Part shown: piece after piece, positions 2,504 through 58,986 of the stretch | Layout: every line of letters begins with the position of its first letter | How positions within the stretch are numbered: the first letter of the stretch is position 1 | Source: Thermodesulfovibrionales bacterium | GTDB lineage: Bacteria > Nitrospirota > Thermodesulfovibrionia > Thermodesulfovibrionales > SM23-35 | DNA length: 64,000 nucleotides | Direction of reading: 5' to 3' | NCBI GenBank assembly: GCA_963716185.1 | Contig: OY970295.1 | Location: 1,080,356-1,144,355 of the forward strand | Translations under genes and position numbers: made by a program | Notes under the pieces: generated by a model | Database searches by the model: none | Seen by the model: only the letters and a program-made list of their open reading frames with translations | What the model was told of the DNA's origin: nothing

Positions 2504-2974
2504 CTAATCCCTTCCTGTTGTCTTTCGCATCGCGCGCTCCAATGCCTTCTCCTCTTTCAGCGAGAGGAACCCGTCGAGGTCGTGAATGAGAACCATTCCG
2601 TCATCGAGCTTCAGCACGCCCTCCACATATTCCGTGCCCGGCACAATTTTTTCAGCCCGGACAATTCTGTCTTTAGATTGTTCAGTGACGCCGTTTACGG
2701 AATCCACGATGAGCGCTACCGCCCTCGTGGCTGTATTAGCTATAATCAATTGATCACTCAGACCTATTTCGCACTCTTTCAGACGGAACCGCTTACGAGT
2801 GTCGACCACGGGGATGATGCGTCCGTGCATGTTGATCACGCCAAGAACGATCTCCGGGGCTTTAGGCAGCGGCGTTATTTCGATGACGCGGACCACTCGT
2901 TCGACTGCAGACAGATGAAGCGCATACTTCTGTTCATCCAGGGTAAAAACGAGTAATTGTTCAGCCTCTTCCAT
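2504..2974 (-). CDS. cheW: CheW chemotaxis coupling protein
   Basis: 156 aa. LVFTLDEQKYALHLSAVERVVRVIEITPLPKAPEIVLGVINMHGRIIPVVDTRKRF. Confidence 0.85.
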   Translation of the reverse strand: MEEAEQLLVFTLDEQKYALHLSAVERVVRVIEITPLPKAPEIVLGVINMHGRIIPVVDTRKRFRLKECEIGLSDQLIIANTATRAVALIVDSVNGVTEQSKDRIVRAEKIVPGTEYVEGVLKLDDGMVLIHDLDGFLSLKEEKALERAMRKTTGRD

Positions 2975-3010
2975 TTTTCAAATGATATCCTACAACAAAA
3001 AAAAAGAAAA

Positions 3011-3219
3011 GTTAATCCAAAAACTGCAATTCACTGAATATCCGGGGAGGCATAGTGGCAGAAAAAGCTTGACAGCAGCACCTTTGTGGGCGCTCAGATA
3101 TCAAGGTAGCCCGAATATTTTTATTCAGAAGAAATATATGGTAGAAAACCCAAATTCTGCATCGTCAAGATTTTTGTGTCACTATGCCTGCCTGAATCTG
3201 AGATCAACCGCATTTTTCG
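3011..3219 (+). repeat. Structured intergenic repeat family, full copy 1 (candidate sRNA or MITE)
   Basis: About 85% identical over its flanks to 57175..57392. Promoter-like TTAATC-N17-TGAATA (3011-3039). 5' arm GGCATAGTGGCAGAAAAAGCTTGAC (3048-) pairs with GTCAAGATTTTTGTGTCACTATGCC (-3187), with a G.U pair valid only on the plus strand. Confidence 0.6.
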
Positions 3220-3277
3220 GTCAATAATTTATTTTACTTGGATACTCGAATGATAAACAGGAAATCGGTTTCCCTCA

Positions 3278-4000
3278 TCATTTCCTTCCGCCGTAGACGC
3301 AGAATATCCCGTATTTGTAAAAGCAATCCACATCCCTGAACCCTGTTTCACACAGCGCATTCAGCTGATCCTTCAGGGTATCGGGTTTATTGTCTTTGTT
3401 TTCTTTATATCTGTAAATGATGTCGTCATAAGAACCATTTTCTATCCCCAGAGAGGTTTTCTTTTCATTTATCCATTCTTTCCATAGCGGCATATACCAT
3501 TGATCAAGAGCTTCCGAGGGCGCAAGGACGACATCGATATTCGCGAAACAACCGCCGGGACTGAGATGCGAATAAACCTTCCTGAAAAGAGATCTTTTCT
3601 CAGCCATCATCAGATGGTGTATCGCCAGTGATGAGACGACAAAATCAAAACGCTCTTTTAAAATATCCTTGTACAAAACATCCTGAAAGCTTGCGCGGAC
3701 GTACCGGACATTCTCAAACTTCTTCAACCGCTCCCTGGCACTGTTCAACATATCCTCGGAGCCGTCAAGCAGCGTGGCCGACACCGGACCTTCAACCTTT
3801 AAGATCTCCTGCGTAACAACGCCGTCTCCGCACCCGAGATCAAGCATCGTTCTTTGCTGCCTTTCTTTCATGAAATACCGGTAGAAGGACTGCACAACGG
3901 CAAACAACCTTCTCCGTTCTATTACAAAAACTTCGGCGTTGTCCCTGTATGCCCGGGCAAAATCCGGCTTGGCCCACTGGGAGTTATTGAAGTCTGTCAT
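3278..4000 (-). CDS. class I SAM-dependent methyltransferase
   Basis: 240 aa. Motif I MLDLGCGDGVVTQEIL and post-I/II spacing typical of Methyltransf_11/25 proteins. Confidence 0.75.
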   Translation of the reverse strand: MTDFNNSQWAKPDFARAYRDNAEVFVIERRRLFAVVQSFYRYFMKERQQRTMLDLGCGDGVVTQEILKVEGPVSATLLDGSEDMLNSARERLKKFENVRYVRASFQDVLYKDILKERFDFVVSSLAIHHLMMAEKRSLFRKVYSHLSPGGCFANIDVVLAPSEALDQWYMPLWKEWINEKKTSLGIENGSYDDIIYRYKENKDNKPDTLKDQLNALCETGFRDVDCFYKYGIFCVYGGRK

Positions 4001-4989: not shown

Positions 4990-5019
4990 TTGATCCAAAA
5001 CTGCAATTCACTCAAATAT
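4990..5019 (+). promoter_or_regulatory. Partial copy of the conserved promoter-like module (site B)
   Basis: TTGATC-CAAAACTGCAATTCAC-TCAAATAT. The spacer is identical to sites at 3017, 57181 and 58980 (minus) apart from one missing A. It points antisense into the 3' end of the RND pump gene. Confidence 0.4.
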
Positions 5020-5034
5020 CCGCCATCGCTTTTT

Positions 5035-28268: not shown

Positions 28269-28339
28269 TTTTCTGAGTTTCTGGGTACCTTATGAACAGA
28301 GACTAAATATTCAGCTTTGTCGGAGGAAATATACCTATT

Positions 28340-28513
28340 TCAGCGCGCCCCCAATTTCTCTAATATTGCTTTTAATGTAGCCTCTTCAACCTTCAGTTCC
28401 TCTTTAAACTCGTGTTTGCCGCCCGAAGCAATCTCACCCCTAAGCTCGGGTATATAGTCCTTAAGCACTGATACAAGAGCATCCTTTTCTTTGTCCGTCA
28501 GATCTAAGTTCAT
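28340..28513 (-). CDS. small hypothetical protein (57 aa)
   Basis: MNLDLTDKEKDALVSVLKDYIPELRGEIASGGKHEFKEELKVEEATLKAILEKLGAR. ATG at 28513 behind AAGAGGAGG. The longer track ORF start was rejected. Confidence 0.5.
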   Translation of the reverse strand: MNLDLTDKEKDALVSVLKDYIPELRGEIASGGKHEFKEELKVEEATLKAILEKLGAR

Positions 28514-28666
28514 GTCTAAACCTCCTCTTAAAAAATTTAAATTCAGACCACGTGGGCTCATTTATCATATTGCCTGAACCCTTAATTACACTTCTATCAT
28601 GAAAATTAAGGCAAGTCAAGGTCATGAACTTTGATTGGGATATTCATGTATCATTTGAGCGGAATA

Positions 28667-29335
28667 TTATTCAGAAAACATGCTCAATTTATCCGGGTCG
28701 GGAATGATTATCGTATTGTCCTTCTCGCTGATAAGCCCTCTCTGCTTCAGGAATGCCAATGCCCTCGATAAGGTCTCAGGGATTGTCCCGAGCAACGATG
28801 AGAGTTCCTTTTTTGAATACTTTAACCTGCAAAGCGTGATGCCGTTTTCGACTGTGCTGTTTTTTAATAAATACCCGGCGAGTCTCGCCTTAATGTCCTT
28901 TAGGGATAATTCCTCGATCCTGGAAACAAACTGCCTGAGCCTCTTCGAATAACCGCTCATCATCTTCAAGGCCAGTTCGGGATGTTCTTTTATGAGGTTG
29001 ATTATTCCCTCTCTTGAAACGCGCACCAGGACCGAATCCTCAAGAGCTGCACAGGATGCAGGATAAACCATGGAGTCGAATATCGCCGCTTCTGCCACAA
29101 GGTCTCCGGGATCATGGATATGCAGAGTATGTTCTTTGCCGTCCGCAGAAATTTTATAAATCTTGACCTTTCCCGAGACAACGATAAAGAAACCGGAGGC
29201 ATCAAGTCCTTCGGCGAATATCTCCTCTCCTTTCCCGACTTTTTTCAGAGAGGTAGATGTCAACAATAGATCTATTTCTTTTCCGGTGAAGGAACTGAAT
29301 AAGAAAGTGTTTAAGAGGAATCTCCGTACATCCAT
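28667..29335 (-). CDS. Crp/Fnr family transcriptional regulator
   Basis: 222 aa. cNMP-binding beta-roll (GEEIFAEGLDASGFFIVVSGKVKIYK) and C-terminal HTH (ELSSLLGTIPETLSRALAFLKQRGLI). Confidence 0.85.
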   Translation of the reverse strand: MDVRRFLLNTFLFSSFTGKEIDLLLTSTSLKKVGKGEEIFAEGLDASGFFIVVSGKVKIYKISADGKEHTLHIHDPGDLVAEAAIFDSMVYPASCAALEDSVLVRVSREGIINLIKEHPELALKMMSGYSKRLRQFVSRIEELSLKDIKARLAGYLLKNSTVENGITLCRLKYSKKELSSLLGTIPETLSRALAFLKQRGLISEKDNTIIIPDPDKLSMFSE

Positions 29336-37886: not shown

Positions 37887-38095
37887 AATTGTAATCCGCA
37901 TTTTATGGAAAGTATCCGGAGTGCGACTTTGATGAGGAAATTTTGAATCGTCAAGCTTTTCCGACTTTAACACGTTGTAGGTGATACAAACAGAATTATC
38001 CTATTACCTGCCGAGCATCTTTGATGAAGTACTGTTGTAGGGGCAGACGCAGAGGCCGGGCAACAATGGAAATCGTAAAAAAACTGAGGTAGACT

Positions 38096-38126
38096 AAAGA
38101 AAGATTCCGGATGAGACTGAATGACA
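38096..38126. repeat. degenerate REP-like unit
   Basis: AAAGAAAGATTCCGGATGAGACTGAATGACA resembles the reverse complement of unit A (AAGAAAGATTCCGGACAAGCCGGAATGACA) but has lost one stem arm. Confidence 0.4.
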
Positions 38127-38188
38127 GGCGCGACAACCTGCAACTCTGCTGAAGGTAGTTTGTCACATAAGATCTGAGAGCATATAAT

Positions 38189-38644
38189 GTGAAAGTATTA
38201 ATTTTAGGCATGGGAAATTTGCTCCGCTCCGACGACGGGGTAGGTCTGCACATAATCGAGGCGCTCAGGGAAGAGAATTTAGGAGGCGATGTAGATTTAA
38301 GAGAAGGGTTGTCCGGTCTCGATATCCTCGATGCAGTAAAGGGATACGACAGGATTGTCCTCGTTGATGCGATAAAGAGCGGAGGCAGGCCCGGAAGAGT
38401 CTATAAGCTTTTACCTGAAGATTTTCTAAACATGCATACCGTTCATTCATTCTCGACACATCTCAATATGGATTTCCACTCGATGCTTGAACTGGGCAAG
38501 ACTCTTTTCCCAGGAAAAATGCCGGACGATATAATCATTGTCGCCATAGAGGCGGAAGACATAACAACAATTTCGGACAAGTGTACGCCGGAAGTTGAAA
38601 AGGGAATGAAGCAGGCTGTTGAGTTAATCAAGAGGCTGGTCTAA
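38189..38644 (+). CDS. hydrogenase maturation endopeptidase (HyaD/FrhD family)
   Basis: 151 aa, GTG start. ILGMGNLLRSDDGVGLHI, VLVDAIKSGGRPG, HSFSTHL. Confidence 0.8.
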   Translation: MKVLILGMGNLLRSDDGVGLHIIEALREENLGGDVDLREGLSGLDILDAVKGYDRIVLVDAIKSGGRPGRVYKLLPEDFLNMHTVHSFSTHLNMDFHSMLELGKTLFPGKMPDDIIIVAIEAEDITTISDKCTPEVEKGMKQAVELIKRLV

Positions 38645-38671
38645 TAGCCGGGATCAAAAGAAAATATCCTA

Positions 38672-39103
38672 CTAAAGCCGTTTTCCGGATGGGCCGTTCA
38701 CGAGCATTTTCCCCCGCAAAGCCTCGAGAAACCTTGTAGCGGAATATTTGGCGTGATCATACGTATAAGCGGATTTTATCTTCTTTTTCCATTTTTGAAA
38801 TGTTCTCATGTCGTTGGAAGCGACCGTTCCGCCGTTTTTGTATAAAAAAACAATGGCCCTTTCAATGCTCTTCAAAGTGAAATCTATCGGCAGTTCAACA
38901 ACTAAAGTCACTATGGACTCTTCTTCCCTGTAAATATCGAACTCATAATAGACGGACTTCAAAACACTCGAAATCTGAACACACCGGCTGACGCCGTAAT
39001 TAATCAAATCTCCGAGCATATATGAAGCCTTGTTGCTAAGCGGCAGCTCATCGGCTTCCCAGAAAAACTTTCTTATCTGCCTGTCCGTTATTCTCTTTTT
39101 CAT
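38672..39103 (-). CDS. hypothetical protein
   Basis: 143 aa, 4 nt downstream of the MurU::AmgK-like gene. No recognisable motif. Confidence 0.45.
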   Translation of the reverse strand: MKKRITDRQIRKFFWEADELPLSNKASYMLGDLINYGVSRCVQISSVLKSVYYEFDIYREEESIVTLVVELPIDFTLKSIERAIVFLYKNGGTVASNDMRTFQKWKKKIKSAYTYDHAKYSATRFLEALRGKMLVNGPSGKRL

Positions 39104-39107
39104 AAAA

Positions 39108-41087
39108 TTATTTTACAACATTTGCCCATGAAAAATGACCAGGCAAGATTTTATTTGTTTCCGCGTGAAGTCCTTCCACAATTCTTTTAACGAGACCGGC
39201 CAGGACGGGATATTCACCGTTTGTAATATCCAGGTCCTCTTTGAGTAGTCTCAACCCCTCAGGGATATATTTCCTGAAATATTTTTTCCCTTTGACCGCA
39301 GACAGAAAGCCATAAGCGCCGAGGGCCTGCATATGACGCTGAAGACGGCAGGAGAGCAGGGTTTCCATGAATTCATTCTCTTCGAAAGATTTCACGGCGA
39401 CCCTGATTTTGCGGATGAAATAGTCTAACAGCCGCGCCCTTAGATCATCTTCAAGGCGGTAATAGGGGTCCCAGAGTATCGATGCGACGTCATAGGCGGG
39501 CGGGCCCATTCTCGCACCCTGGTAATCCAGAAGCCTCGGTATCCCGCCTTTCGTAATCATGATATTCTGCGACTGGAAATCACGGTGGATTATTGTCCTG
39601 GGAAAAGTATCCACCTTCACGGCTAAACGGTGGAACTCCTCATTCAGTAAATCGACATTTCCGACCAGTATATTAACGACGCCGGACACGAATCTATCCA
39701 GGAAATAACCCGTCTCCCACCTGAGATGTCCATAATCGAAAACTCTTTCCAGAAGGAGAGGACATTCCGAGACATGCTCGGTCGCTCCTCCGTGCATCAG
39801 GATCAAAATATCGAGCACTCTTTTATACGTTTCTTCCATCTCTTCATGTTTACGCCGGCAGCTGAGCCAGCTGTAGAGAGACAGATCGCCGAGATCTTCA
39901 AAAACAGCGCGCATCCTTTCAGGTTCTGCTTCTATAAGTTCCGGAACAGGGACGGAGTGTTTACGGAAAAAAAGTGTATATTCAATGTGACGAAGGAAAT
40001 CAGGATCGTTGTCCGCGCACTGCATAAGGACCGCAGAACGGCCGTTTCTTTTCACCCGATAGTAGGTCCTGTCGGACCCCCCCGTGCCGATGACTACAGT
40101 ACCCGCCTCGACGGATAAGCCAAGCATCCCGGTTGGAGTGAGGTCTAATTTGAAACCGGGGCCGAGGATGCAATCCTCATAATGACGGCCGTTCTCGATC
40201 TCGCTACCCGGGAGCATGATGCAATTCCTGACGGCAATACCATTCTTTATTGTTGCATTTTTTGAAACGACCGTTTCTTTTTCTATAACAATGTATCCGT
40301 CCAGCTCAATATTCTCACACAGACTTTCGGAGGGGTCTATATAGACGGTTTCTCCATTTTCTCTCAGGTTATGAATGACGGTCCTTGCATAGGAAACAGG
40401 CGTCCCGATATCACTCCAGAAGCAGCCGGTAAAATCCAGGGTCCCGATTCTGTGACCCGCTGCGACAGCCCTGAACCAGGCATCAACAACGCTTGACACT
40501 CCGCCGGGCAGAAAATTCAAGAACTCCGGCTGATACACCGCTATGCCGGTAAAAGCCACATGTTTTGATGTTTCGTGACCACCTCGCCCGTGCCCCTTCC
40601 CCGATGACGGGGCGGCATGGACGTGATTAATAATCCCTTCAAGAAAGCCCTTGCCATCTACCGCAAGCTTGTTGAACTCTGCATAGTCGTGCACGGCAAG
40701 AGTTGCAATATTATTGGATGAAAGATGGCAGTCAACCAGTTTTTTTAATTCCATGTCGCTGACTATGTCCGAATTGTGGACAAGAAAAATATCGTCTTTC
40801 AGAAAAGCCCCGGCATTTTTCAGTGCCCCTCCGGTACCGAGGATAGGTTCTTCGGGGAAAAGCCGGACCCTTTTGTTGAATGATGACCGGCTTAACCAGT
40901 CTCCGATTTCATCTTTTTTGTAGTGAAGATTTATTCCTGTTTTGCCCGCCACGGCCGATACCTTTTCGAGAAGCGATTCCAAAACGGGCTTGCCGAGGAC
41001 CGGGAGAAGAGGTTTGGGAATATGGTCGGTGATCGGGCGCAACCTTTCACCCCGTCCGGCAGCTAAAATAAATACCGAGAGGTTCAC
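39108..41087 (-). CDS. bifunctional sugar-1-phosphate nucleotidyltransferase / sugar kinase (MurU::AmgK-like fusion)
   Basis: 659 aa. N-terminal NTP-transferase (FILAAGRGERLRPITDHIPKPLLPV), a short left-handed beta-helix segment, and a C-terminal APH-type kinase (IIHRDFQSQNIM..., LDYQGARMGPPAYDVASIL). Confidence 0.65.
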   Translation of the reverse strand: MNLSVFILAAGRGERLRPITDHIPKPLLPVLGKPVLESLLEKVSAVAGKTGINLHYKKDEIGDWLSRSSFNKRVRLFPEEPILGTGGALKNAGAFLKDDIFLVHNSDIVSDMELKKLVDCHLSSNNIATLAVHDYAEFNKLAVDGKGFLEGIINHVHAAPSSGKGHGRGGHETSKHVAFTGIAVYQPEFLNFLPGGVSSVVDAWFRAVAAGHRIGTLDFTGCFWSDIGTPVSYARTVIHNLRENGETVYIDPSESLCENIELDGYIVIEKETVVSKNATIKNGIAVRNCIMLPGSEIENGRHYEDCILGPGFKLDLTPTGMLGLSVEAGTVVIGTGGSDRTYYRVKRNGRSAVLMQCADNDPDFLRHIEYTLFFRKHSVPVPELIEAEPERMRAVFEDLGDLSLYSWLSCRRKHEEMEETYKRVLDILILMHGGATEHVSECPLLLERVFDYGHLRWETGYFLDRFVSGVVNILVGNVDLLNEEFHRLAVKVDTFPRTIIHRDFQSQNIMITKGGIPRLLDYQGARMGPPAYDVASILWDPYYRLEDDLRARLLDYFIRKIRVAVKSFEENEFMETLLSCRLQRHMQALGAYGFLSAVKGKKYFRKYIPEGLRLLKEDLDITNGEYPVLAGLVKRIVEGLHAETNKILPGHFSWANVVK

Positions 41088-41129: not shown

Positions 41130-41293
41130 ACAAGGGCAGATAGGTTGAAAAAAGCCTGTAGCAGCACCTTATGGCCGCATAAACCGGCCTGCCAGCCTTT
41201 GATATAATGCACGGACTATGAGATTTGCATTCATGTGTATAATAAATAAAATCTTGTTGCATTACAGGGGTTTTTCAACCTGTCTGCCCTTGT
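41130..41293 (+). repeat. Structured intergenic repeat family, copy 3 (covarying arms)
   Basis: 23-nt arms ACAAGGGCAGATAGGTTGAAAAA / TTTTTCAACCTGTCTGCCCTTGT (one U.G pair, valid on the plus strand only). Core AAAAAGCCTGTAGCAGCACCTTATGGCCGC resembles AAAAAGCTTGACAGCAGCACCTTTGTGGGCGC of copies 1 and 2. Confidence 0.55.
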
Positions 41294-41311
41294 TTTATGC
41301 ACCGGATGGCC

Positions 41312-56856: not shown

Positions 56857-57174
56857 CGTTCTCCTCCTTATTTTTGCGGTTTTAGAGCCTTAAAGCTTCT
56901 ATTTCAGAACGCGCGTCTCTAAAGTATACACTAATTCGGCTTTAAATCCAGATATTCTTTCACTAAGCGCGGGCATCCATTTTACATATATTACCATTGT
57001 TAATCCTAACATTTGTCAATATGCTGAAACGCTCTAGTTGTACCCATATAGAGGGCAGGTGTCTTCAGGAAAACTTCCATCTTTGTTACAGTACATACTC
57101 AGCAGGTTCCTTTATTTGCGCACGATAGGCAAGCTTTCGTACGGATATCCACACAATTTTTAGATAATTTTGCA

Positions 57175-57392
57175 TTCATCCAAAAACTGCAATTCACTAA
57201 ATATGCGGGGAGGCATAGTGGCAGAAAAAACTTGACAGCAGCACCTTTGTGGGCGGTCAGATATCAAGACCGCGCGGATATTTTTAATCAGAAAAATATC
57301 TGGCGTAGAAAAACCCAAATTCTGTCCCGAAGGCTTTCGGGATTTTTATGTCACTATACCTGCCTGAATCTGAGATCAATCGCATTTTTCGG
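57175..57392 (+). repeat. Structured intergenic repeat family, full copy 2
   Basis: TTCATC-N17-TAAATA promoter-like module. 5' arm GGCATAGTGGCAGAAAAA (57212-), 3' arm TTTTTATGTCACTATACC (-57360). Internal terminator-like CCCGAAGGCTTTCGGGATTTTT (57326-47). Shared 3' tail TGCCTGAATCTGAGATCAA.CGCATTTTTCGG. Confidence 0.6.
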
Positions 57393-57479
57393 GTTCATAA
57401 TTCTTTCATATTTCCTTCGACATTTCTTCATATTTTCAATGTAAACTTAAATGTAGAAAATAACTTTCTTCATTTTTAG

Positions 57480-57508
57480 GGCAGCCAGTACCCCTCCTAC
57501 TGGCTGCC
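57480..57508 (+). other. perfect 11-bp hairpin with CCCCTCC loop
   Basis: GGCAGCCAGTA-CCCCTCC-TACTGGCTGCC. No flanking T-run on either strand. Confidence 0.6.
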
Positions 57509-57646
57509 AACCTCCAAACCAAAAAAATGAAATGTTCTTACTAAAGCAGACAATTGAATTAACTTCAAAATAAATGTATGTTTTAGCCTATAATTATGTT
57601 CAGTACATGGAAGAAGAGAATACACAAAAGCAAAGGTCGAAGTGAA

Positions 57647-58833: not shown

Positions 58834-58942
58834 CCGGAGCACAGACTTTAAAGCGGAATAATCTCAGAGGAGTTATCGAACTGCGAATTATGGAAGAAAT
58901 GAGGAAACTTTGCGGCGAACTCAAATCGTAGTGCTTATTCTT

Positions 58943-58986
58943 CTATACCTCCCCGTATATTTAGTGAATTGCAGTTTTTGGGTCAA
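58943..58986 (-). promoter_or_regulatory. orphan copy of the conserved promoter-like module (site D)
   Basis: Minus strand: TTGACC-CAAAAACTGCAATTCAC-TAAATA-TACGGGGAGGTATAG. Best sigma70 match of the four sites (17-nt spacer). Shares the first ~15 transcribed nt with copies 1 and 2. Confidence 0.5.

What the first reader, a model, noticed from the sequence alone, without database searches (positions are those of the whole stretch)
3011..3219. Family of intergenic elements closed by a 20-25-bp terminal stem (candidate structured sRNA or MITE)
Copies at 3011-3219 and 57175-57392 share these features in order:
- a promoter-like module
- a 5' arm GGCATAGTGGCAGAAAAA
- a conserved box GCTTGACAGCAGCACCTTTGTGGGCG
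- a variable middle retaining a local hairpin (GAATATTT../..AAATAT versus GATATTTTT/AAAAATATC)
- a 3' arm TTTTT(G/A)TGTCACTAT(G/A)CC
- a shared tail TGCCTGAATCTGAGATCAA.CGCATTTTTCGG

In copy 1 the stem extends to 25 positions (22 paired). It includes a G.U pair that works only for a plus-strand RNA. The overlapping track ORFs (81 and 70 aa) are not conserved as protein, because the shared nucleotides are read in different frames. I cannot match the element to any RNA family I know.
Basis: seen in the sequence. Interest (0 to 1): 0.65.

Follow-up and report, generated by a model that had tools for sequence, protein, structure and literature searches.

The report
High-copy TTAA-inserting bacterial MITE family
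The two look-alike intergenic elements are copies of a small mobile DNA repeat (a MITE) present in dozens of copies in freshwater-sediment bacteria, and its long "stem" is simply the transposon's inverted ends, not evidence of a new structured RNA.

Summary
Window 3016-3220 and 57179-57393 are about 86-89% identical and carry every listed block in the same order. They are not a two-copy sRNA family.

- **Copy number:** Logan contigs from four sediment and soil metagenomes pile up on exactly this interval at 20-100 times the depth of the flanks, with 48-99 contigs per run, sharp ends and varied flanks.
- **More copies:** I recovered six more full copies in unrelated gene contexts, plus truncated copies.
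- **Ends:** the terminal 62 nt are imperfect inverted repeats.
- **Flanks:** copies are flanked by TTAA-like 4-mers. Five of eight pairs match exactly, including the non-palindromic TTCA/TTCA and TCAA/TCAA.
- **Mobility:** a 92-95% identical relative (L010) carries a copy where the window (about 38644-38647) has an empty site whose length fits a 4-bp duplication.
- **RNA tests:** there is no Rfam hit, covariation equals the shuffled controls, both strands fold equally well, no copy gets a promoter call at the module, and no ORF is conserved. Transcription could not be tested.

Verdict: a new MITE family with TTAA|CCC...GGG|TTAA ends. The mobilising transposase was not found. Every informative copy lies antisense to its neighbouring genes (8 of 8), and I cannot explain this.

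The parts
3016..3220 (+). Full MITE copy c1. Sub-parts: outer left inverted repeat 3016-3043, inner left arm 3044-3073, box plus hairpin 3074-3112, variable middle 3113-3163, inner right arm 3164-3188, outer right inverted repeat 3189-3220.
   Evidence: 94.8% identical to the family consensus. Logan contig depth rises and falls at 3012-3020 and 3217-3220.
3012..3015 (+). Left flanking tetranucleotide of c1 (TTAA). Its right partner is TCAA at 3221-3224, one mismatch.
57179..57393 (+). Full MITE copy c2. It belongs to a subfamily with a 7-nt longer, GC-rich local hairpin before the T-run. It is flanked by TTCA at 57175-57178 and TTCA at 57394-57397, an exact non-palindromic duplication.
57324..57350 (+). 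Canonical intrinsic-terminator-like hairpin plus T-run (GTCCCGAAGGCTTTCGGGAT TTTTAT) inside c2. The same variant occurs in a second copy, L012:4077-4003.
4994..5022 (+). Truncated copy c3. Only the outer left inverted repeat remains (TCCAAAACTGCAATTCACTCAAATATCCG), preceded by TTGA at 4990-4993.
58943..58982 (-). Truncated or decayed copy c4. Its left end matches the consensus 26/26 and runs through GGGGAGGTATAG. It is preceded by TTGA at 58986-58983. A degenerate right-end remnant may lie near 58850-58880.
38644..38647 (-). Empty insertion site. The orthologous position in the relative L010 carries a full copy flanked by TTAA/TTAA.
   Evidence: L010 1-1956 and 2352-3005 match window 40601-38645 and 38642-37992 at 92-95% identity. 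The lengths agree only if 4 bp were duplicated.

Best explanation
The element is a non-autonomous DNA transposon (a MITE) of about 205-215 bp.

**Shown**
- It is a dispersed, high-copy, non-coding repeat with sharp ends.
- Its terminal 62 nt are imperfect inverted repeats. The outermost bases are CCC(A/G)AAAA.TGC at the left and GCATTTTTCGGG at the right. An inner 30-nt part is nearly perfectly matched.
- It is flanked by a 4-bp TTAA-like duplication.
- It is present at a site in one genome and absent from the same site in a close relative.

**Inferred**
- A transposase encoded elsewhere binds the ends and moves the element in trans. It inserts at T(T/C)(A/C)A sites, preferably TTAA, and duplicates 4 bp.
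- The end signature TTAA|CCC...GGG|TTAA is the one known from piggyBac elements. Their distant prokaryotic relatives are the IS1380 family, so an IS1380-like enzyme is my leading candidate.
- The 20-35-bp 'terminal stem', the 'promoter module' and the 'tail' are simply the two inverted ends. They would pair in any read-through transcript or in single-stranded DNA.
- The pairing is inherited from the master copy. It is not maintained by selection on an RNA.

The consistent antisense orientation relative to neighbouring genes suggests either host-level filtering or a strand-biased insertion mechanism. One orientation may be polar, since the c2 subfamily carries a + strand terminator.
For: - **Copy number and ends:** in four metagenome runs the element's summed contig depth is 130-1050, against 0-6.4 for the unique flanks. 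Between 48 and 99 contigs per run align at 80-99% identity. The alignments stop at 3012-3020 and 3217-3220 and run on into unrelated sequence. The c2 locus gives the same picture.
- **Independent copies:** full copies in unrelated contexts are L005, L009, L010, L011/L013 and L012, with partial copies in L012 and L014/L015.
- **Inverted ends:** 47 of the first 70 positions match the reverse complement of the other end without gaps. BLAST finds 63 nt at 73-78% in every copy.
- **Flanking 4-mers (left/right):** TTAA/TCAA, TTCA/TTCA, TTAA/TTGA, TTAA/TTAA, TTAA/TTAA, TGAA/TTAA, TCAA/TCAA, TTAA/TTAA. Five pairs are exact. Two of these are non-palindromic, so they cannot be extensions of the inverted repeat. 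The consensus of contig flanks is ...TTAAC|CC at the left and CGG|GTTAAT at the right.
- **Filled versus empty site:**
- **Non-coding:**
- **No structural selection:** 94.9% of cells are paired against 94.7% in shuffles. The covariation score is 0.087 against 0.085, reached by 137 of 500 shuffles. There is one compensatory pair, and the RNAalifold covariation term is +0.75. The + and - strands fold equally well.
- **Literature:** piggyBac TTAA duplications, CCC/GGG ends and the IS1380 relationship are described in PMC10140906. MITE characteristics, partial copies and empty/filled-site logic are described in PMC3184786 and PMC10969869.
Against: - No autonomous element or transposase sharing these ends was found. 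None lies in the window, and pattern scans of the GTDB representatives, viral contigs, plasmids and phages found no family member.
- Three of eight flanking pairs differ by one base.
- The outer halves of the two ends are only about 60% alike, yet each is well conserved among copies.
- In the one orthologous pair (L011/L013) the element is 94% identical while the neighbouring intergenic DNA is 72-79% identical. This could mean constraint or gene conversion.
- The left inner arm is more conserved than the right one (2.8% against 6.7% divergence).
- The 8-of-8 orientation bias hints at some function or at a strand-specific mechanism.
Confidence: 0.87

Rival explanations
1. The element is a mobile sRNA gene. 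It is a MITE, but it also carries its own inward-facing promoter (TTnAyC-N17-TAAATAT) and makes a 140-175-nt structured RNA from the + strand. That RNA acts in trans, as reported for the MITE-derived Cbsr sRNAs of Coxiella.
For: - The module resembles a weak sigma-70 promoter, best in c4 (TTGACC-17-TAAATA).
- The c2 and L012b subfamily has a canonical + strand terminator about 140 nt downstream.
- The G.U pairs at columns 54/242, 36/256 and 71/225 fit the + strand.
- The element is more conserved than the adjacent intergenic DNA in L011/L013.
- MITE-derived sRNAs are documented (PMC10969869).
Against: - No scanner call at the module in any copy.
- No covariation beyond the shuffled controls.
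- Both strands fold equally well.
- Several substitutions break + strand pairs but would be G.U on the - strand (c2 and L012).
- In the c2 subfamily the terminator lies upstream of the 3' arm, so the 'terminal stem' would not be part of the RNA.
- No indexed RNA run holds the element, although this is uninformative.
Confidence: 0.1
2. The element is an exapted cis-regulatory module. Copies persist because, in one orientation, they supply an outward promoter, a terminator or insulator, or an mRNA-stabilising hairpin to the neighbouring genes. This would explain why every copy is antisense to its neighbours, with the left end next to the start of the downstream gene.
For: - The orientation is antisense at 8 of 8 informative loci.
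- Left ends lie 14-42 nt from downstream start codons at c1, c4, L012 and L013.
- A GTGACA-17-CAGAAT site on the - strand of c1 points toward cheW.
- MITE-borne promoters are known from Correia and other elements.
Against: - The - strand promoter call is not reproduced in L005, L009 or L012. Its -10 hexamer is CAGGAT in about half of the copies.
- The number of calls does not exceed the shuffled expectation.
- The sample is small.
- A strand-biased insertion mechanism combined with gene-strand bias could give the same pattern.
Confidence: 0.2
3. The element is a REP/BIME-like or IS200/IS605-derived palindromic element (PATE), moved by a RAYT or TnpA Y1 transposase through single-stranded DNA. 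That mechanism would naturally give a strand or orientation bias.
For: - The orientation bias (8 of 8).
- A conserved TTnA(C/T) immediately 5' of the left end at all 8 full copies and both truncated left ends. This resembles the fixed target tetra- or pentanucleotides of IS608 and ISDra2 (from my own knowledge).
Against: - The element is about 205 bp, not 20-40 bp.
- It has long terminal inverted repeats and matching 4-mers on BOTH sides, and the empty-site lengths fit a 4-bp duplication. Y1 elements make no duplication and have no terminal inverted repeats.
- It has no GTAG or CGTC tag.
Confidence: 0.03

Closest known systems
Prokaryotic MITEs in general, such as Nezha (Anabaena/Nostoc) and Chunjie (Geobacter uraniireducens)
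   Same: - Size of 130-235 bp, non-coding and A+T-richer than the genome (42-43% against 47% GC).
- Terminal inverted repeats, flanking direct repeats and very stable predicted hairpins.
- Intergenic location, with many full and truncated copies.
- Mobility inferred from filled versus empty orthologous sites (PMC3184786, PMC10969869).
   Different: - No sequence similarity was found to any published element; a full-text search for its conserved blocks gave nothing relevant.
- Chunjie has 21-bp inverted repeats and 9-bp duplications. This element has a 62-nt bipartite inverted repeat and a 4-bp TTAA-type duplication.
- No partner IS has been identified, whereas Nezha shares its ends with ISNpu3.
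piggyBac superfamily / IS1380 family transposons
   Same: - Insertion at TTAA with a 4-bp duplication.
- Element ends of CCC...GGG directly abutting the TTAA.
- Asymmetric subterminal repeats internal to short terminal repeats (PMC10140906).
   Different: - piggyBac is eukaryotic, and its prokaryotic relatives are the IS1380 family.
- No transposase was found here, so the link rests on the end signature alone.
- Two copies sit in non-TTAA duplications (TTCA, TCAA), so target choice is looser than in classical piggyBac.
Correia elements (Neisseria) and Coxiella QMITE1/2
   Same: These are MITEs that carry sigma-70-like promoters, fold into long hairpins in transcripts, affect neighbouring genes or give rise to sRNAs.
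   Different: - Correia has TA duplications and 26-bp inverted repeats, with experimentally shown promoters, IHF sites and RNase III processing.
- Here there is no transcript evidence and no reproducible promoter call.
Structured sRNAs closed by a long 5'/3' helix (for example 6S RNA)
   Same: A length of about 180-200 nt, with a long irregular closing helix formed by the two ends.
   Different: - No Rfam hit.
- The interior is multi-branched, not a central bubble plus a terminal arm.
- High copy number with transposon-type flanks.
- No covariation.

Membership tests
MITE (non-autonomous DNA transposon) | Small (under about 500 bp) with no conserved coding capacity | tested here: met
   The element is 205-215 bp. 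All six frames are broken or frame-shifted among the 8 copies.
MITE (non-autonomous DNA transposon) | Terminal inverted repeats | tested here: met
   62-63 nt, 73-78% complementary, without gaps, in every full copy.
MITE (non-autonomous DNA transposon) | Target-site duplication flanking the element | tested here: met
   The flanks are 4-bp TTAA-like sequences. Five of eight pairs are exact, including TTCA/TTCA and TCAA/TCAA. The empty-site length fits a 4-bp duplication.
MITE (non-autonomous DNA transposon) | Many dispersed copies with unrelated flanks | tested here: met
   Between 48 and 99 contigs per run, at 20-100 times the flank depth. There are 8 full and at least 4 partial copies in distinct gene contexts.
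MITE (non-autonomous DNA transposon) | Presence/absence polymorphism at orthologous sites | tested here: met
   L010 is filled where window 38644-38647 is empty, with flanks 92-95% identical.
MITE (non-autonomous DNA transposon) | An autonomous IS with the same ends that supplies the transposase | tested here: inconclusive
   No matching end pair more than 300 bp apart in the window. No hit in the GTDB representatives, viral contigs, plasmids or phages.
piggyBac / IS1380-type transposon | TTAA target with 4-bp duplication and CCC...GGG termini | tested here: met
   The consensus is TTAA|CCC(A/G)AAAA...TTTTCGGG|TTAA. The family features are described in PMC10140906.
piggyBac / IS1380-type transposon | Mobilised by a DDD/DDE transposase of that family | not testable with these tools
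   No transposase gene linked to these ends could be retrieved.
Structured sRNA gene family | Match to a curated RNA family | tested here: not met
   cmscan against Rfam 15 found only a tRNA in the window. Nothing credible appeared at E<=10 in 2950-3300.
Structured sRNA gene family | Secondary structure maintained by compensatory change | tested here: not met
   One compensatory pair among 56. All measures equal the shuffled controls. The sample is only 8 sequences.
Structured sRNA gene family | Own promoter and terminator | tested here: inconclusive
   No + strand promoter call in five copies. A canonical terminator occurs only in the c2/L012b subfamily.
Structured sRNA gene family | A discrete transcript | not testable with these tools
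   No indexed RNA run holds the element or the neighbouring genes. Four metatranscriptomes gave 0 contigs.
REP/BIME or IS200/IS605-derived PATE | Short 20-40-nt palindromes with a GTAG/CGTC tag, or subterminal hairpins, with no inverted ends and no duplication | tested here: not met
   The element is about 205 bp with 62-nt inverted ends and 4-bp duplications.

The most novel reading that the evidence does not exclude
A bacterial MITE with a piggyBac-like end signature (TTAA|CCC...GGG|TTAA) is not just junk DNA. Under this reading it carries an orientation-dependent function. That function could be an internally promoted, roughly 140-175-nt structured RNA. It could also be a unidirectional promoter or terminator module. 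Either would explain why every copy sits antisense to its neighbours. It would also explain why the element is better conserved than the surrounding intergenic DNA.
Probability: 0.12. Interest if true: 0.55.

Novelty: new member of a known kind. Interest (0 to 1): 0.3.

Why it matters
- **Annotation:** the element explains the two conserved 'orphan' intergenic blocks and the spurious 50-100-aa ORFs called on them (P0001-P0005, P0014). It also explains why short-read assemblies of this organism break exactly here (L003 and L004 end inside the element).
- **Biology:** it adds a MITE family from uncultured freshwater-sediment, wetland and peat anaerobes; one relative carries dsrC and a dsrMKJOP-like gene set. 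Its TTAA/CCC-GGG ends point to an IS1380/piggyBac-like transposase. If the partner is found, that would give a tractable bacterial model for TTAA-specific transposition.
- **Open question:** the strict antisense orientation is a small but testable puzzle about how hosts filter MITE insertions.

Tried and rejected
- **Rfam:** searched at the gathering thresholds and at E<=10. Only noise.
- **Sigma-54 and sigma-70 readings of the 5' arm and box:** the spacing is wrong by hand inspection and the scanner makes no call.
- **Protein-coding reading:** the consensus - strand frame is open for 71 codons. It is frame-shifted in 4 of 6 copies, and the + strand ORFs differ between copies.
- **Retron, bridge-RNA or omega-RNA ideas:** dropped. 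No reverse transcriptase, recombinase or TnpB gene lies adjacent, and the element has transposon-type inverted ends and duplications.
- **Pattern scan of GTDB representative genomes:** two chance hits only.
- **Pattern scan of JGI metagenomes:** one true copy (L005) and three chance hits.
- **Other collections:** viral contigs (3 scans), plasmids and phages gave nothing.
- **Retrieving copies through spurious ORF translations:** three protein searches gave six proteins, which led to seven loci.
- **RNA evidence:** no indexed RNA run holds the element. Four same-study metatranscriptomes gave zero contigs.
- **Literature:** a full-text search for the conserved sequence blocks gave only irrelevant primer matches. 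The Chunjie paper (PMC2516098) is not held.
- **Taxon of the source genome:** could not be established. All that is known is that the window proteins lie on a 3,585,087-bp contig.

Full report
**1. The observation**

Window 3016-3220 and 57179-57393 (both + strand) align over their whole length at 85-89% identity (E 2.5e-68). Each copy folds into a very stable structure dominated by a long irregular closing helix (-60.8 and -68 kcal/mol, z -4.6 and -5.6). Rfam gives no match, either at the gathering thresholds for the whole window or at E<=10 for 2950-3300.

Two side statements do not hold.
- The 'promoter-like module' is never called as a sigma-70 site on the + strand.
- The 81-aa and 70-aa ORFs share a frame at both ends (31/54 identical residues).

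**2. It is a large repeat family**

- BLAST inside the window found two further truncated left ends, at 4994-5022 (+) and 58982-58943 (-). The second matches the consensus 26/26.
- Short-read contigs of the same strain end inside c1 at the positions expected for a repeat boundary: L003 at window 3046 and L004 at 3066.
- I laid the Logan contigs of four freshwater-sediment and soil metagenomes on 2950-3290.
  - Between 48 and 99 contigs per run aligned at 80-99% identity.
  - Summed depth reached 130-1050 over the element, against 0-6.4 on the unique flanks.
  - Alignments stopped at 3012-3020 and 3217-3220 and continued into mutually unrelated sequence.
  - c2 behaves the same way.
- A pattern scan of JGI metagenomes gave one more full copy, L005.
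- Translating the element's accidental ORFs and searching the protein collection gave six 'hypothetical proteins'. Their contigs carry five further full copies (L009, L010, L011, L012, L013) and partial ones (L012:4003-4077, L014/L015).
- The gene contexts are unrelated to one another: cytochrome c, NMO, HycI, ferredoxin with a DsrMKJOP-like set, and HisKA with RNase HII.

**3. Anatomy**

The 216-nt consensus is its own imperfect reverse complement at the ends. Of the first 70 positions, 47 match the other end without gaps, and BLAST reports 63 nt at 73-78% in every copy. The termini read CCC(A/G)AAAA.TGC at the left and GCATTTTTCGGG at the right.

Immediately outside the termini lie TTAA-like tetranucleotides.

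| Copy | Left / right flank |
|---|---|
| c1 | TTAA / TCAA |
| c2 | TTCA / TTCA |
| L005 | TTAA / TTGA |
| L009 | TTAA / TTAA |
| L010 | TTAA / TTAA |
| L011 | TGAA / TTAA |
| L012 | TCAA / TCAA |
| L013 | TTAA / TTAA |

Five of the eight pairs are exact. The two non-palindromic exact pairs can only be direct duplications, not extensions of the inverted repeat. The consensus of the contig flanks in the metagenomes is likewise ...TTAAC|CC and CGG|GTTAAT.

**4. Mobility**

L010 is orthologous to window 37992-40601 at 92-95% identity on both sides. Its copy sits exactly where the window has uninterrupted sequence.
- Filled site: GATCCTGG-TTAA-[element]-TTAA-GAGACCAG.
- Empty site: GATCCCGGCTATTAGACCAG.

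The lengths agree only if one TTAA is counted once, which means a 4-bp duplication.

The L010 copy itself carries a nested 175-nt insertion flanked by TAA/TAA. The L013 copy carries a 54-nt GC-rich insertion, also seen in X3 contigs. L011 and L013 share the right flank but not the left. The element is therefore a breakpoint either for recombination or for chimeric assembly.

**5. Tests of the RNA reading**

- On an 8-copy alignment, RNAalifold recovers the long helix, but the covariation term is +0.75 and only one pair is compensatory.
- For that structure, 94.9% of cells are paired against 94.7% after shuffling. The covariation score is 0.087 against 0.085, reached by 137 of 500 shuffles. The pairing is inherited, not maintained.
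- The + and - strands fold equally well in every copy.
- Substitutions in the arms are mixed. One is a G-C to A-U switch (L005) and two are G.U to G-C. Several break + strand pairs, and two of those would be G.U on the - strand.
- In the c2/L012b subfamily a canonical terminator hairpin plus T-run lies upstream of the 3' arm. A + strand RNA made there would lack the 'terminal stem'.
- Transcription could not be tested. No indexed RNA run holds the element or its neighbouring genes, and four same-study metatranscriptomes gave no contig.

**6. Best explanation**

The element is a MITE, mobilised in trans by an unidentified transposase that inserts at TTAA-like sites with a 4-bp duplication. The signature TTAA|CCC...GGG|TTAA, with asymmetric subterminal repeats, is that of piggyBac. 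Its distant prokaryotic relatives are the IS1380 family (PMC10140906). This makes an IS1380-like partner my leading guess, but it rests on the ends alone. No family member or partner was found in the GTDB representatives, viral contigs, plasmids or phages.

**7. What remains odd**

- **Orientation.** At all eight independent loci where the direction of a neighbouring gene is informative, the element is antisense to the co-directional genes. These loci are c1, c3, c4, L005, L009, L012a, L012b and L011/L013. The right end abuts the stop of the upstream gene. The left end lies near the start of the downstream gene, 14-42 nt away at c1, c4, L012 and L013. The one-sided probability is about 0.004. 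No reproducible promoter or terminator call explains this. Polarity of the + strand, an outward promoter, and a strand-biased insertion mechanism all remain possible.
- **Conservation.** In L011/L013 the element is 94% identical while the adjacent intergenic DNA is 72-79% identical.
- **A related family.** A second palindromic repeat family at window 41130-41300 is multi-copy in the same metagenomes. It shares a 23-nt internal block (AAAAAGCyTG.yAGCAGCACCTT) with this family.

**8. Comparison and verdict**

The element meets every testable MITE criterion except the identification of a partner IS. It resembles Nezha and Chunjie in size, copy structure and hairpin stability. It differs in its ends and in its duplication: Chunjie has 21-bp inverted repeats and 9-bp direct repeats (PMC3184786). 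MITE-borne promoters and sRNAs are documented for Correia and for the Coxiella QMITEs (PMC10969869). A transcript from this element would therefore not be unprecedented, but nothing here shows one.

It is a new member of a known kind and of modest interest.

Noticed in passing
window 41130-41300: A second palindromic repeat of about 165 nt, with 31-nt arms that are 90% complementary. It is multi-copy in the same metagenomes (10-13 contigs per run, at several times the flank depth). It shares a 23-nt internal block AAAAAGCyTG.yAGCAGCACCTT with the main family (local alignment score 29 against 18.1 +/- 2.2 in shuffles).
   Followed up: partly
window 57393-57540: The stretch directly to the right of c2 is itself repeated. 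In run X4 the depth is 22-83 where the unique flanks have 0, and long contigs align at about 90% from 57393/57394 to 57518-57538. It contains the hairpin GGCAGCCAGTACCCCTCCTACTGGCTGCC.
   Followed up: no
all copies (c1, c3, c4 in the window; L005, L009, L011/L013, L012 x2): Every copy whose neighbouring gene direction is informative lies antisense to those genes (8 of 8). The left end is next to the downstream gene's start and the right end next to the upstream gene's stop. This is unexplained.
   Followed up: partly
L010:1980-2156: A 175-nt unrelated element is nested inside the left inverted repeat of the L010 copy, flanked by TAA/TAA. It has an internal inverted repeat, GGATACAGTGTTTGAGC...GCTCAAACACTGTATC. 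A similar sequence follows a break in another copy in run X4 (loose end at 57226).
   Followed up: no
L013:7308-7361: A 54-nt GC-rich insertion (TTCTCCTCAGAGAATCCGCTCTCCTCGGCGAGCCGCCGGGGCGTCCGGGGCGGA) lies right after CTTGACAG in the L013 copy. Contigs of run X3 break at the same point with a similar sequence (TTCTCCTCGGC), so this may be a subfamily.
   Followed up: no
L011:1-78 versus L013:7428-7500: L011 and L013 share the element and 1.1 kb of right flank (about 90% identical) but have unrelated left flanks. This is either recombination at the repeat or a chimeric metagenome assembly.
   Followed up: partly
window 57035-57344: A roughly 95% identical relative in run X3 (a 773-nt contig) has 44 other letters in place of this stretch. 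It keeps the last 48 nt of the element and the right flank. The c2 locus is therefore structurally polymorphic, and contigs of the same strain also stop at 57051.
   Followed up: no
L014:1315-1402 and L015:1221-1308: A solo right half of the element (consensus positions 129-216) followed by TTAA, located between divergent genes.
   Followed up: no
L010:3390-3783 versus window 28310-28680: Beyond the syntenic block, the relative's contig continues into sequence that matches a window region 10 kb away at 85% identity. This is either a rearrangement or a paralogue.
   Followed up: no
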